DNA of 64,000 bases from Treponemataceae bacterium (GTDB lineage Bacteria > Spirochaetota > Spirochaetia > Treponematales > Rectinemataceae): assembly GCA_963678065.2 (NCBI GenBank), contig CAXXVZ010000002.1, forward strand, positions 96,001 to 160,000. Direction: 5' to 3'. Below, piece after piece: positions 9,001 to 25,848 of the stretch. The first letter of the stretch is position 1, and each line of letters starts with the position of its first letter. The position numbers are program-made.

Positions 9001-12000
9001 GATCATGCCTGACAATATCCTCGACAGAGCGCAGTTCATGGATCTCATCTATTCGGCTTGGCGCAAAGCCTGGGAAAAAGAGAGTAAAGGATTGAGATAG
9101 TACCGTCCGGTGGTTGTGGCAGGTCGCTCTGCCCGCTGCTTCAGCAGCGGGTGATGTCCCATTGATGGCAAGGAGGCTTTCATGTATCGGAAAATCGGTT
9201 CGGTGTTGCTCGCGCTTCTGTTCCTCGTGCCTTTCGTCGGCGCGCAGGCGCAGTTCGAGCAGAATTACAGGCAGATGACATGGGATCAGATCGCGGCCGA
9301 GGCTAAGGGGCAGACTGTCTATTACTACGCCTGGGGCGGCAGCGACATCATAAACAGTTTCGTCAACGGGTACTTCAAGGACCGCCTTGCCCAAAAATAC
9401 GGAGTGACCCTGAAATTCGTGCCGGTCACCGATGCGACGACCTATGTCAACAAGGTGCTCGGAGAGAAACAGGCTGGCAAGAACAGCGGAGGTTCCGTCG
9501 ACCTCGTGTGGACGAACGGCGAAAATTTCAGAACGATGAAGCAAGGCAAGCTGCTCTTCGGTCCTTACGCCGACAAACTCACAAACACCAAGTATTACAA
9601 CGAATCCAGTACCGCCTACGATTTCGGTTACCCGGTGGAAGGTTTCGAATCTCCTTACGGCGCGGCCCAGGTCGTCATGGAGTACAACTCCCAGTATGTG
9701 TCGAATCCGCCCAAAACCATTCCCGAGCTCGTGGCCTGGGTCAAGAAAAATCCGGGAAAATTCACCTACGCGGCGCCGCCTGATTTCACCGGCAGCGTGA
9801 TAGTCCGCCACTTCTTCTATGCGAACGCGAACAACATCAACGAACTGATGGGTCCCCTCAACATGTCAGTCTACGACAGGGTCGCCGCGAAAACCTGGGC
9901 AATGCTGAACGAAATCAAGCCGTATCTCTGGATGGGCGGCAAGACCTATCCTGAGAGCAGCATCAAGTCCCAGGAGCTCATGAGTAACGGCGACATCTGG
10001 ATCAGCTTTGAATACGGCCCGAAAGGTGCGGAATCGAGAATCGTGAAGGGAACCTATCCCGCTTCCATCAAGACTGCCGTACTCGATACCGGCACGATCG
10101 GCAATACCAATTTCCTGGCCATCTCCTTCAACTCATCGGTAAAAGCCGCGGCAATGGTGGTGTGCAACGAGATGATGGACCCCGAAGTGCAGTACAAGGC
10201 CAGCCTCGATCCCGACCAGGGTGGTATGGCGTGGATGTCGCCCCTCGATCTGACGAAGGTTTCCCGTGATTGGGCGGCAAAATTCGATGCGCTTCCCAGG
10301 CATCCTTCGACACTCTCGGGCGAGGTACTGAATTCGCACAAGGTATCCGAAATGATGTCCGATTGGCTCGTCAGGATCGAGAAGGATTGGCAGTCCAATG
10401 TCCTGAAGAAGTAAGGCCTCCGGTTTTGATTCCTCACTCAAGAGGCTGTTGATTGTTTCCCGCCCGTGTATCCATAACCAGCAGTACACGGGCGGCATTT
10501 TTTTAACCGCAGGAAATCCGATGACAAAGCGCACTACAGTTACTTTGCTTCTCCTGCCGACCGTGGCTGTGCTCCTCTTCCTGTTCTTCGGGGGCCTGGT
10601 GATGGGCTTGATGCAGAGTTTCAGCTTCATGCCGATGATAGGGTTGAACGATTTCAACATCGATGCCTACAGAAGTCTGTTCAGCGATCGGGAATTTCTT
10701 ATGAGTCTTGCGCTCACTCTGTGGATCTCCATCAGCTCGACTCTGTTGACAGTCGTTTTTGCGATCATCACAGCCCTCGCCTTTCGGAGGACATTCCCCG
10801 GCAAACGGCTGATAAACTTCCTCTATCAATTTCCGATCACCATACCGCACATCGTAATAACGATAGGGACCATGCTCGTTTTTTCACAGAGCGGGATTGT
10901 CGCGAGAATTGCGTATCACCTGGGAATGATATCCGATCAAAGCACGTTTCCTGTTCTGATCTCCGACAATTTCGGATTGGGGATAATATACGTCTATTTG
11001 TGGAAGCAGATTCCCTTCGTCGGCGTCATCGTGCTGTCGATATTGCAGTCTCTGGGGAACAACTTTGAAGAGCTGGCCCGCTCTCTCGGAGCCAACAAGT
11101 GGCAGTCGTTCCGCCATGTACTCCTTCCGACAATCATTCCCGGCATCCTCCCCGCGAGCATCATCTGTTTTTCGTTTACGTTTGGATCCTACGAGGTGCC
11201 GTTCCTGCTGGGCAAACCCTATCCGGCGGTCATATCGGTGCTCGCCATGCGGCTGTACCAGGATGTGGACCTGAATGCCCGGCCGCAGGCCATGGCCACG
11301 GCCGTTTTCATGGCGGTTTTCATAAGCGTACTGGTGGTGTTCTACAGAAAACTTCTGAACAAAATGTCGGGGAGAGGATGATGTATGGAATCCGAAGAGA
11401 ATAAGGCCAACCCGATACATTGGATCATCTATGTGGGTGTCCTGGTTTCGATGATCGGCCCGCTGCTTCCACAGTTCGTGTGGCCGTTCGCGAAAAGCTG
11501 GTTTTTTCCTGATCTCATTCCTTCAGCATGGAGTGTGAGAGCATGGCAGTACATCGGCAATCCGAACAACCAGGTACTCGAGGCGGTCTGGAACAGTCTC
11601 GTCATAGCGGTGATAGTGATGTTCATCTCGGTAATTCTGGGCGTACCCGCAGGAAGGGCGCTCGGGATGTACCGTTTCCGCGGTAAGGGGATTGTCGAAC
11701 TGTTCATCCTTGCTCCGTCGATCATTCCGGGTCTGGCGGTAACTATGGGTATTCAGGTGGTCTTCATAAAGATGGGACTCGCGGACACCATGATCGGCGT
11801 TGTGCTCGTCCACCTCATTCCCACCATCCCCTACATGACCATCAGCATGAGCGGTGTTTTCGCAAATTACGATCCGGATTTCGAAGAGCAGGCAAAAAGC
11901 CTGGGAGCATCTCCGGCCAAGACATTCTTCCTCATCACCTTGCCGGCAGTCTTTCCGGGCATCGTCACCGGAGCCATGTTCGCGTTCCTGATCTCCTGGG

Positions 12001-24000: not shown

Positions 24001-25848
24001 GGACGGCATCGTCAGAAACGAGACACTTATACGGCTCGGGGTAGACAAATGGATATAGGAGTTCATGTCTCGCTGTGGACTCCCGAATGGGCCAGCCCTT
24101 TCCTGGATGCGCTCGACGCGGCGGCGGATCTCGGATGCACCTGTGTGGAAATCCCGCTCATGGATCCTTTCAATTTCCCTCTGGAAGATATTGAACGCCG
24201 GCTCTCGAAGAATGACCTGAAAGTCTATTGCGGTACGGGGTTGGGCAAAGATACCGACATCGGAAGCGTTTCCGCTACGGTGAGGGAGCGAGGAGTCCGG
24301 CACCTGAGCGAATGTTTGCGAATCTGCGCCGATCTGGGAAGCGACTCCCTCGGAGGCGTCTTGCATTCTCCGTGGGGAATGAGGGGGCCGGTCGATTCCG
24401 GATATGCTCAGCGTGTGGCAGCATCGCTCGGATACGTGGCAGACAAGGCGGCCGAATCCGGAATCGGCATCGCGCTGGAGTGCATAAACCGATACGAGAA
24501 CTCCTTCGTGAACACTGTCGATCAGGGGCTGTCGCTGCTGCGGATCATCGGCCGAGAGAATGTTGGCCTGCATCTGGACACCTATCACATGAACATCGAG
24601 GAGCACGGGATCGTACCCGCAATAGCCGAGGCGGGAAAGACAATCCTGCGGATGCACTTGAGTGAGAACACCAGGGGGTATCCCGGAAGCGGCTCGCTTC
24701 CCTGGAAAGAAATTCTCGCCGCAGCCCAAAAGGCAGGGTACCGGGGACCATGGATCATAGAAAGCTATGTATGCCCGGATTTCCCGGCGTCCGCCGATGT
24801 GTGCGTGTGGAGACCGATCGAGCCCGATATGTCCGCGAGTCTGCGGAAATCACTGGAGTTTCTCGGAGGGCTTATTGCAGCAGACTGAGAATCGCGGAAT
24901 AGATGTAGCAGATCAGGGGACCTTCAGGTCTGTGGCCGGGGGGTATTCCTGATCTGTTTTTTTTCCCGGAAGACCGACAAGATGTTTTCTTCGCTCAGCA
25001 GAATGTGCGAGCGGAACGCTTTCTCGTATTTTTCCTGTTCTCCTGAAGCGAGAGCTTCTATCAGCTCCCTGTGCATCATGGACATGTATGTGTCGGAGAA
25101 CTCGAAATAATGGATCATGCGGAAAAGAACGTGCATCTGTGACGCGATGTCCTTCCATGCCTTCACGAGACGCTGGTTGTCCGATTTCTGAATGATGAAC
25201 AGATGGAATTCAATGTCCAGATCCGATAATTCGGCGTAGTTGTATGATTTCTCCGACGCGACGATCTTGTCGAGAATCGAGTTGAGAGTGACAAAATCAT
25301 TTTCCGTCAAATTCCCGTGGGCAAGGCGGACTCCAAGCACTTCGAGGCTCGCCCGCAGTGTCACCAGCTCGTTGATATCCTTCTCTGTGAAATCGATGAC
25401 CGATATGCCCCGCCGCGCTTTGAACAGTATGAGTCCTTCCTGGGCCAGTTCCCGTATCGCTTCGCGCACAGGTGTCTTGCTGATGGCCATCTGGGTGGAT
25501 ATCGCCTGTTCGACCAGCTTGGTCCCAGGGGGAAGTTGGCCGTTTAAAATCGCTTCCCGAAGGTTGCTGTACGCGATTTTATACAGAGGCGAGTTCAGCG
25601 ATTCCTTTATCTTGAGTTCGTGATGCATCGAGTAACTCCAGATAGACTCTTGGACAGCACTTGAATCAGTGTAAGGCGCGTACTACATAATCCATCGGTT
25701 CAGTGCCATATGTCAATTCCTCATAATCGGGTCATAGCCCATTGTCTAGGGCCTGACCCTCTTCCGGTCCCTCGGGAAGAGGCTCGCCTCTTTCACGTTG
25801 GAGAGACCCAGGATCTTCTGTGTCAGCCGCTCGCAGCCGATCGCGAAG

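What a model noticed while it worked through the whole genome (the two positions that open the first line are those of the whole stretch)
9182..25628. Complete operon for a sulfo-nucleoside / sulfo-pentose route that ends in reverse phosphosulfolactate synthase (ComA)
Fourteen co-oriented genes (g00146-59) encode an ABC importer, an SqvD-like isomerase, an ADP-ribosylglycohydrolase, a nucleoside hydrolase, a LarA-type racemase, an unknown P-loop kinase, ComA, a split transketolase, a tungsten aldehyde oxidoreductase and a ketose 3-epimerase. I read them as one catabolic path: a 5'-sulfonated nucleoside is cut to sulfo-ribose, turned into sulfo-xylulose, split by transketolase to sulfolactaldehyde, oxidised, racemised and phosphorylated to (R)-phosphosulfolactate, and ComA run backwards frees sulfite and PEP. 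That would be a new C-S cleavage route in fermenters that keeps all carbon, and a catabolic role for a coenzyme M enzyme.
Evidence so far: Best Swiss-Prot hits: SQ isomerase SqvD/SftI (g00150), sulfofructose transketolase SqwH 44% (g00157), ComA 36-41% (g00155), lactate racemase, W-AOR, L-ribulose 3-epimerase; ComA 261 bits against cut 280. g00154 has GGSGSGKST, no family, 75 relatives at E<1e-40. Found in 3 of 130 Spirochaetia from three other families: one keeps all 14 genes in order, one the 11 that lie in the stretch read, at 41-75%; the third keeps ComA, kinase, epimerase, AOR and LarA. ComA lies beside Lar_N in 50 and beside transketolase in 53 species genomes.
(Added by a program. Inside this text positions count along the whole contig: contig position 96,001 is position 1 of the stretch shown here. 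"Call 12" and the like, gene names such as g00115 and contig names such as C1 are that model's own, and its searches are not shown. The text may have been shortened before it was handed on; [...] marks where a part breaks off. The agent that wrote the report below was given it as the finding of a first reader that could run no searches.)

Follow-up and report, generated by a model that had tools for sequence, protein, structure and literature searches.

The report
Candidate arsenosugar breakdown operon
A conserved 15-gene operon in uncultured spirochaetes and other uncultured bacteria likely imports and ferments a 5-substituted ribose, most likely the arsenic sugars made by algae and cyanobacteria rather than a sulfonated sugar, and would finish by cutting the carbon-arsenic bond with a remodelled coenzyme-M enzyme, which would supply candidate genes for a breakdown route whose biochemistry is not known.

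Summary
The operon is real and larger than reported: 15 co-oriented genes (8171-24888) behind a strong promoter, plus a convergent GntR. It recurs in 29 of 68 loci fetched. The sulfonate substrate is poorly supported. The ComA clade keeps the core acidic and Lys residues but has replaced pocket motifs that known synthases share. The racemase pocket is hydrophobic. The SqvD and SqwH hits do not discriminate. Two other operon families point elsewhere: the YnjB-type importer (7 of 20 other loci) and the nucleoside-hydrolase subfamily (3 of 8) sit beside genes NCBI names arsenosugar glycosyltransferases, which also flank ArsS. Best reading (about 0.5): catabolism of 5-dimethylarsinoyl-ribosides to PEP plus dimethylarsinous acid. 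All of this rests on gene context and sequence. No arsenic exporter lies in the operon, and larC and larE were not found in this genome.

The parts
8119..8147 (+). sigma-70-type promoter of the operon (11 of 12 matches)
   Evidence: ribosome site just before 8171
   Evidence: PF01156; travels with the operon
9182..10414 (+). YnjB-family solute-binding protein, candidate arsenosugar receptor
   Evidence: NF008633 441 bits, cut-off 203; family context
10449..11381 (+). ABC permease 1 (likely start 10521)
   Evidence: PF00528
11385..12206 (+). ABC permease 2
   Evidence: PF00528
12203..13246 (+). ABC ATPase with TOBE domain
13268..14689 (+). aldose-ketose isomerase, L-fucose/D-arabinose isomerase superfamily; not SftI/SqvD by score
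   Evidence: NF048012 118 bits, cut-off 700; weak PDB hit to D-arabinose isomerase
14705..16396 (+). ADP-ribosylglycohydrolase domain plus ankyrin repeats, candidate second ribosidase
16386..17258 (+). nucleoside hydrolase 2; its subfamily lies beside an APH kinase and TIGR04282/TIGR04283 elsewhere
17271..18497 (+). LarA-family 2-hydroxyacid racemase; catalytic and cofactor-binding residues kept, pocket P-M/L-A
18514..19593 (+). unnamed P-loop protein of PEPCK/HPr-kinase fold, candidate 2-hydroxyacid 2-kinase
   Evidence: model pLDDT 92; Foldseek PEPCK E 3e-9; Z 12.7 PEPCK, 10.3 HPr kinase
19586..20407 (+). ComA-fold enzyme with remodelled pocket, candidate carbon-heteroatom (C-As) eliminase
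20404..21237 (+). split transketolase, N subunit
21239..22204 (+). split transketolase, C subunit; lacks the Asp of the GEDG motif
22220..24058 (+). aldehyde:ferredoxin oxidoreductase (AFOR family)
24049..24888 (+). ketose 3-epimerase (tagatose/psicose/ribulose 3-epimerase family)
24924..25628 (-). GntR/FCD regulator, convergent, kept beside the cluster in relatives

Best explanation
The operon likely encodes an anaerobic pathway that imports arsenosugars (5-deoxy-5-dimethylarsinoyl-ribosides), is predicted to dismantle the ribose, and would release the arsenic by a ComA-type elimination. Proposed steps: the YnjB-type ABC system imports the riboside; the two nucleoside hydrolases and the ARH free arsenoribose; the isomerase and 3-epimerase give the xylulose analogue; transketolase moves C1-C2 to a central acceptor and leaves D-3-dimethylarsinoyl-lactaldehyde; AOR oxidises it, yielding reduced ferredoxin; LarA turns the D-acid into the L-acid, the configuration of ComA's own product; the PEPCK-fold kinase phosphorylates the 2-OH; the ComA homologue removes the alpha proton and expels dimethylarsinous acid, leaving PEP. 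This is the arsenic(III) counterpart of sulfite loss from phosphosulfolactate. Shown: genes, order, promoter, conservation, folds, pocket changes, and the arsenosugar-gene neighbourhood of two subfamilies. Inferred: every substrate, the direction, and the leaving group.
For: Importer: YnjB family. Of 20 other spirochaete YnjB loci fetched (of 23), 7 hold both TIGR04283- and TIGR04282-like genes and 8 an APH kinase. Six of 6 such proteins tested pass the NCBI cut-offs, named 'arsenosugar biosynthesis glycosyltransferase'. The 7 loci come from 3 families, 5 of them from one. The same cassette flanks ArsS in other genomes: GT2 in 3 of 16 loci, reductase/VTT in 6 of 16. ArsS makes 5'-deoxy-5'-dimethylarsinoyladenosine (PMC13598754, passages). 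Five of 8 plasmid YnjB loci hold a CDP-alcohol phosphatidyltransferase, as arsenosugar phospholipid synthesis would need. Operon receptors fall at two places inside the YnjB tree. Hydrolase: its subfamily occurs in 8 of 400 other genomes, beside the APH kinase in 5 and a TIGR04282/04283-type gene in 3; 4 of 4 NH+APH genomes tested hold TIGR04283. ComA pocket remodelled with Met, His and Ala while ten core residues are kept in 59 of 60; clade support 100/100. LarA has Leu-Ala where malate racemases have His/Gln-Lys. G184 puts the same hydrolase subfamily and a related isomerase (24-28% identity) with Dak kinase, aldolase and Fe-ADH, which would give dimethylarsinoylethanol, a reported product (PMC10594586, passages).
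Against: No direct evidence for any substrate. No arsenic exporter or ArsR lies in the operon; the ars locus is about 250 kb away, and ArsP and Acr3 are common in controls (8 and 6 of 14 over cut-off). The TIGR04282/04283 names come from NCBI and I found no paper testing them; the YnjB cassettes lack ArsS and could carry another 5-modified ribose. The YnjB/ArsS exclusion (0 of 24) is not significant once two ArsS-rich families are set aside (about 1.4 expected). The ComA changes remove two basic and two acidic residues, so net charge is unchanged, and I could not map them onto a ligand site. The hydrolases keep the Glu-x-Asn that binds a 5'-OH in ordinary nucleoside hydrolases (role recalled). 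The transketolase lacks the Asp that selects D-configured acceptors in 22 of 22 rows (role recalled). larE and larC were not found in G000, G401 or G404. Four loci carry a GH42 (L016, L023-L025). Holders are groundwater, sludge and biofilm, and arsenosugars are trace compounds, lower in fresh water (PMC10456119, passages).
Confidence: 0.5

Rival explanations
1. One reading: a 5-sulfo-riboside is degraded to (R)-phosphosulfolactate, and reverse ComA frees sulfite and PEP. A variant is that ArsS-type enzymes also adenosylate sulfite in nature, so the same cassette serves sulforibosides.
For: Stereochemistry fits (D-sugar product, racemase, L-specific ComA). ComA fold and core residues are kept. 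Some loci add a YihU-like reductase family member (L016; 137 bits, cut-off 348). Sulfo-TK occurs in Spirochaetes (PMC12890257, passages).
Against: Pocket motifs shared by M. jannaschii ComA, both Xanthobacter XcbB copies and a ComB-linked Brevibacillus enzyme are replaced. ComAs with intact motifs sit beside the same kinase elsewhere (L032, L041). LarA lacks the Lys used for the anionic side chain of malate. The SftI and SqwH resemblances are not diagnostic. No sulfite exporter was identified inside the operon among the ORFs scanned; one TauE lies about 3.6 kb beyond the GntR in L003, on the opposite strand. I found no report of a natural sulfo-riboside.
Confidence: 0.13
2. The cargo is 5-methylthio- or 5-methylsulfinyl-ribose (from MTA); the last step expels methanethiol or methanesulfenate and gives PEP.
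For: MTA is a common SAM by-product (recalled). A neutral, Met-lined pocket and a hydrophobic LarA pocket fit. The cassette kinase is APH-fold, like methylthioribose kinase (recalled). The G184 layout resembles the MTA DHAP shunt (recalled).
Against: The importer and hydrolase subfamilies track TIGR04282/04283 and a phosphatidyltransferase, not methionine-salvage genes. MTA is normally cut by other nucleosidase folds (recalled).
Confidence: 0.13
3. The leaving group is water: an L-pentose (or a 6-deoxyhexose) is cleaved by the Asp-less transketolase to L-glyceraldehyde (or a 4-deoxytetrose), oxidised and phosphorylated, and the ComA homologue is an L-specific enolase.
For: The transketolase lacks the stereo-selecting Asp. 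ComA's product is L-configured (CIP reasoning). GH42 in four loci. LarA homologues racemise glycerate and epimerise 2,3-dihydroxybutyrates (PMC11770544, abstract and passages).
Against: With a glycerate racemase present, kinase and ComA would be redundant with normal glycolysis. The LarA pocket is not the lactate/glycerate type. Seven of 11 other split transketolases in this genome also lack that Asp. The GH42 is very divergent (best 149 bits over 729 aa).
Confidence: 0.1
4. Another unknown 5-substituted riboside is the cargo (O-methyl, phosphonate, selenium, sulfonium), or the genes do not form a single linear path.
For: Kinase-ComA pairs with four further pocket patterns occur in other contexts (L027, L039, L046, L049), so the module appears to serve several leaving groups.
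Against: Nothing points to a specific alternative. The gene set survives rearrangement intact in G404 and G405, as expected of one pathway.
Confidence: 0.14

Closest known systems
Sulfo-TK pathway (SqvD, SqwGH, SqwI, SqwF or SqwD/SqwKL; PMC12890257, passages)
   Same: Anaerobic; a fucose-isomerase-family isomerase and a split transketolase strip C2 units from a sugar with a non-phosphate terminal group.
   Different: Nucleoside-hydrolase and ARH enzymes instead of a sulfoquinovosidase; a 3-epimerase; a predicted C3 product; AOR, LarA, kinase and ComA added; scores far below SftI; the heteroatom would be released in the cell rather than exported on a C2 sulfonate.
Phosphosulfolactate synthase ComA/YitD/XcbB (PDB 1qwg, 1u83; PMC9457059, passages)
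   Same: Fold (TM 0.79, rmsd 1.9), about 40% identity, core Asp/Lys/Glu/Asn residues kept.
   Different: Below the TIGR03849 cut-off; pocket and C-terminal motifs replaced; no ComB or XcbC partner; paired with a kinase in a catabolic operon.
Arsenosugar synthesis genes ArsS (TIGR04167), TIGR04282, TIGR04283 (PMC13598754, PMC12159101, passages)
   Same: The operon's importer and hydrolase subfamilies share their gene neighbourhood.
   Different: The operon holds none of these genes, and G000 has neither ArsS nor TIGR04283 over cut-off; it is predicted to degrade, not build.
SuyAB sulfolactate sulfo-lyase with SlcC/ComC racemisation (10.1101/2023.08.01.551581, passages)
   Same: Same net logic: racemise a 3-substituted lactate, then eliminate the heteroatom.
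   Different: Unrelated enzymes; pyruvate directly, with no phosphorylated intermediate.
E. coli YnjBCD (NF008633)
   Same: Binding-protein family, over cut-off.
   Different: No ligand known to me (one search listed three papers with single mentions, none read); here linked to catabolic enzymes, not to a phosphatidyltransferase.

Membership tests
ComA phosphosulfolactate synthase | TIM-barrel fold of 1qwg / PF02679 | tested here: met
   PF02679 245 bits; Foldseek E 1.8e-24
ComA phosphosulfolactate synthase | TIGR03849 equivalog cut-off | tested here: not met
   261.4 against 280
ComA phosphosulfolactate synthase | core residues including the Lys aligned with M. jannaschii Lys137 (catalytic role recalled) | tested here: met
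   ten positions kept in 59 of 60 clade proteins
ComA phosphosulfolactate synthase | pocket motifs shared by known synthases (GGT, E-x-S-D-G, R-E-S-G, C-terminal R/H-x-D/E-T) | tested here: not met
   replaced in the clade
ComA phosphosulfolactate synthase | sulfite addition to PEP | not testable with these tools
   needs an assay
Sulfo-TK pathway | SqvD/SftI isomerase | tested here: not met
   NF048012 118 against 700
Sulfo-TK pathway | SqwGH orthology | tested here: inconclusive
   no SqwH sequence at hand; about 48% to an ordinary split transketolase (hand count)
Sulfo-TK pathway | sulfoquinovosidase, SqwI, SqwF/SqwD in the cluster | tested here: not met
   no GH31, RpiB or ADH family among the 15 genes
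LarA superfamily | catalytic His pair and cofactor-binding Arg, Lys, His | tested here: met
LarA superfamily | nickel-pincer cofactor genes in the genome | tested here: not met
   larE and larC not found in G000 (99.9% complete); present in 2 of 4 relatives; larB not tested
Malate racemase-type LarA (anionic side chain) | His/Gln-Lys at LarA1 358-359 | tested here: not met
   Leu followed by Ala, Gly, Ser or Phe in operon homologues
YnjB-type ABC receptor | NF008633 cut-off | tested here: met
   441 against 203
YnjB-type ABC receptor | arsenosugar binding | not testable with these tools
   context only; no solved relative found
PEPCK/HPr-kinase fold | fold, P-loop and upstream His | tested here: met
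   His130 and Lys153 in 48 of 48 wider homologues

The most novel reading that the evidence does not exclude
This is a genetic route for arsenosugar fermentation ('arsenoglycolysis') with an oxygen-independent carbon-arsenic lyase evolved from ComA. YnjBCD-type transporters are arsenosugar importers. A second layout (G184) explains dimethylarsinoylethanol. The kinase-ComA pair is a general phosphorylate-and-eliminate module that has been retuned to several leaving groups.
Probability: 0.4. Interest if true: 0.93.

Novelty: new variant of a known kind. Interest (0 to 1): 0.82.

Why it matters
A 2023 review states that arsenosugars are broken down with microbial help to dimethylarsinate, dimethylarsinoylethanol and inorganic arsenic, but that the biochemical pathway is not known (PMC10594586, passages). 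This operon names candidate enzymes for each step and makes the question testable with a handful of purified proteins. The front half resembles sulfoglycolysis, hence the novelty class. The last two steps have no characterised counterpart in my searches and would be new chemistry whichever leaving group is right: a kinase that primes a 2-hydroxy acid and a ComA homologue that breaks a carbon-heteroatom bond to yield PEP. It would also bear on how organic arsenic is remobilised in anoxic groundwater and sludge, and would give a function to the YnjBCD family.

Tried and rejected
Expression: a lake metatranscriptome held short contigs over 21 of 30 bins of the operon but also over 22 of 30 bins of a comparison stretch (laid at a different likeness threshold), so nothing specific is shown. 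Direct co-location of YnjB with ArsS, which I expected from recall, was not found: 0 of 24 genomes hold both. An apparent ars link of the Aliiroseovarius YnjB locus failed: its GAPDH is below the ArsJ-associated cut-off and its neighbour is P5C-reductase-like. The Deinococcus ArsO-like neighbour is below cut-off (264 against 425). ArsP, Acr3 and TauE occur in all five genomes tested and in many controls, so they do not discriminate. Xanthobacter XcbA is not related to the kinase. The kinase has no plasmid hit and no informative PDB sequence hit. Grouping the operon ComAs with other kinase-adjacent ComAs is unsupported (35.6/50 once labels are corrected for re-rooting; five divergent rows left out). 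The ComA structure paper is not held, so pocket residues could not be assigned to phosphate or sulfonate. The context of the isomerase paralogue in G000 (36%, C4) gave sugar ABC genes and dehydrogenases and no substrate clue. No complex prediction was run. Supplements were not read; those of PMC11770544 (tree assignments, Fig. S7) could bear on the LarA pocket.
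Full report
Observation. Two corrections matter. A fifteenth gene, a second nucleoside hydrolase at 8171-9100, opens the operon behind a near-consensus promoter at 8119-8147. The gene at 24924-25628 is a GntR on the minus strand. 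The operon is 56% G+C against 62-64% in its flanks and 59% for the genome.

Conservation. A scan of GTDB genomes gave 7 loci (six peptide patterns from one protein, so close relatives only) and a metagenome scan gave 61. Of these 68, 29 carry the window's ComA clade, some as near-duplicates. The kinase lies directly upstream in 27 of 29; the other two have under 240 bases upstream. A transketolase gene follows in 24 of 29; the rest end at the contig edge. LarA lies in the fetched stretch in 22 of 29. G404 holds all 15 genes in a rearranged order, and G405 holds them on two short contigs. The cluster is rare: among 400 sampled Spirochaetota only one other genome had a strong kinase match, and that one was distant.

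The kinase. It has no Pfam or NCBIfam family. Its model (pLDDT 92) matches PEP carboxykinases (E 3e-9) and, at Z 12.7 and 10.3, PEPCK and HPr kinase, well above unrelated rows at about 4. The wider family has 61 clusters at E below 1e-30 and keeps the His and the P-loop. These folds phosphorylate an oxygen, so a 2-hydroxyacid kinase is a fair inference. Relatives also sit beside 6 of 39 other ComA loci, in one case with a TRAP permease and a LarA-family gene (L039).

The ComA homologue is not a standard synthase. Sixty proteins at 58% identity or more form a clade, followed by a gap; support is 100/100. Ten core residues are kept in 59 of 60. Eight positions that read K-T-S-R-E-R-D-T in 53 of the next 58 proteins read M-S-A-K-A-M-x-P in the four commonest clade patterns. 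M. jannaschii ComA, both Xanthobacter copies (XcbB is a shown synthase; PMC9457059, passages) and a ComB-linked Brevibacillus enzyme keep the T, S, R-E and T positions; the first Lys and the C-terminal Arg vary in one Xanthobacter copy. I could not read the structure paper, and the changes remove two basic and two acidic residues. So the safe statement is a remodelled, more hydrophobic pocket, not a proven loss of an anion site. ComAs with intact motifs also lie beside the same kinase family (L032, L041), which suggests that sulfolactate chemistry would not need this remodelling.

The other enzymes. LarA keeps its catalytic and cofactor residues. At the four selectivity positions described in PMC11770544 (section 6 read) it has P, M, L, A, where malate racemases use His/Gln-Lys for an anionic side chain. 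The isomerase scores 118 against the SftI cut-off of 700. The transketolase is about 48% identical to an ordinary split enzyme (hand count), so the SqvD and SqwH labels carry little weight. It lacks the Asp of the GEDG motif in 22 of 22 rows, but so do 7 of 11 paralogues in this genome. larE and larC were not found in G000, G401 or G404 and are present in G402 and G403. G000 has four further LarA homologues, so the cofactor gap is genome-wide and unexplained.

The cargo clue comes from the importer and the hydrolases. The binding protein is YnjB-family. Of 401 Spirochaetota, 24 hold one. I fetched 20 of the 23 others. Seven carry both a GT2 and a DUF2064 gene nearby, 8 an APH kinase and 11 a VTT protein or a disulfide-reductase-like gene. 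Six of six GT2/DUF2064 proteins tested pass TIGR04283 or TIGR04282, which NCBI names arsenosugar biosynthesis glycosyltransferases. Five of the seven loci belong to one family. In 16 of 92 ArsS loci, chosen to spread across families, the same genes recur (GT2 in 3, reductase/VTT in 6). ArsS makes 5'-deoxy-5'-dimethylarsinoyladenosine (PMC13598754, passages). No YnjB genome has ArsS, as a salvage route would predict, but only about 1.4 overlaps are expected outside two ArsS-rich families. Five of 8 plasmid YnjB loci viewed (of 78 records) hold a CDP-alcohol phosphatidyltransferase, and one holds this hydrolase subfamily. Operon receptors fall at two places within the family tree.

The hydrolase subfamily gives a second line from a different gene family. 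It occurs in 8 of 400 other genomes, beside the same APH kinase in 5 and a TIGR04282/04283-type gene in 3, two of which share a genus. Four of four NH+APH genomes tested hold TIGR04283. One genome, G184, lacks TIGR04283 and joins the hydrolase to a related isomerase, Dak kinase subunits, an aldolase, an epimerase and an Fe-ADH. With arsenoribose, that layout would give DHAP and dimethylarsinoylethanol, a reported product.

Mechanism. Arsenosugars are 5-dimethylarsinoyl-beta-D-ribofuranosides (PMC10456119, passages). Hydrolysis, isomerisation, 3-epimerisation and transketolase cleavage would leave a D-configured 3-substituted lactaldehyde. ComA's product, (R)-phosphosulfolactate, is L-configured by the CIP rules, which explains the racemase. 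It also argues that the substituent is not OH, since D-glycerate would need neither racemase nor ComA. Elimination of As(III) from an arsinoyl group parallels loss of S(IV) from a sulfonate. Pyruvate kinase would pull the step and repay the ATP. All of this is inference.

Against. No substrate is shown. No arsenic exporter or ArsR lies in the operon. ArsP and Acr3 elsewhere are unremarkable. The hydrolases keep a Glu that binds a 5'-OH in ordinary enzymes (recalled). Four loci use a divergent GH42. Holders are groundwater, sludge and biofilm, and arsenosugars are trace compounds, a thin return for 15 genes. The cassette could carry a different 5-modified ribose. I put the arsenosugar reading at 0.5, sulfonate and methylthio at 0.13 each, water at 0.1 and other cargo at 0.14.

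Literature. Ten searches of the open library listed no reverse-ComA catabolism and no arsenosugar catabolic genes; subscription journals are largely missing. I read section 6 and passages of PMC11770544, and passages of PMC12890257, PMC9457059, PMC13598754, PMC10456119, PMC6656958, PMC10594586, PMC7345539, PMC12159101, 10.1101/2023.08.01.551581 and 10.1101/2024.10.15.618377; no supplements. PMC10594586 states that the pathway is not known. Earlier AI notes of this scan proposed the kinase-ComA pair for sulfolactate in other genomes and YnjB as an arsenosugar importer. I saw the YnjB notes only after my own tests, and they are not independent support. None of the notes listed describes arsenosugar degradation.

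Verdict. A real, conserved, undescribed catabolic operon. A binding assay and a two-enzyme assay would settle it. Interest 0.82.

Noticed in passing
L219 (G184:C3:355500-369000): Dak1, fucose-isomerase-family isomerase, DeoC/LacD aldolase, GntR, TIM epimerase, Dak2, the same hydrolase subfamily, Fe-ADH and an MFS transporter: a second catabolic layout, a candidate source of dimethylarsinoylethanol.
   Followed up: partly
L162-L166, L169, L180, L212, L213: YnjB importer or hydrolase with an APH kinase, TIGR04283 and TIGR04282 (most also with a reductase or VTT gene) in genomes without ArsS: a candidate arsenosugar salvage cassette.
   Followed up: partly
L027, L039, L046, L049: Kinase-ComA pairs with four further pocket patterns, beside a creatininase and branched-chain ABC, TRAP plus LarA group 22, or a sulfonate-type ABC; probably other leaving groups.
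   Followed up: partly
L032, L041: Kinase beside a ComA with intact motifs, after an MFS and a UbiE-type methyltransferase: a better candidate for the sulfolactate version.
   Followed up: partly
L016, L023, L024, L025: Operon variants with a divergent GH42; L016 and L023 add a second LarA-family gene and a 3-hydroxyisobutyrate-dehydrogenase-family gene.
   Followed up: partly
L003:5065-5946, L004:6870-7760, L031: A third, degenerate hydrolase copy with altered metal-binding motifs.
   Followed up: no
window 2574-7974, minus strand: Divergent ribose-type ABC system and GH3 hydrolase with their own promoter (8033-8005); the ABC genes lie near the operon in one relative (L008) too.
   Followed up: no
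G000 genome: Five LarA homologues but no larC or larE found in a 99.9% complete genome; a dozen split transketolases.
   Followed up: partly
Spirochaetota sample: ArsS passes its cut-off in 92 of 401 genomes, 65 of 75 in one family: far more common than a niche arsenic gene would suggest.
   Followed up: no
window 27001-29592, minus strand: GatB-like protein of 863 aa with a C-terminal extension that looks asparaginase/GatD-like, read by eye.
   Followed up: no
G000:C2:366000-386000 (L209): ars locus with three ArsP-family permeases, ArsD, ArsA, an ArsR-family regulator and Acr3.
   Followed up: partly
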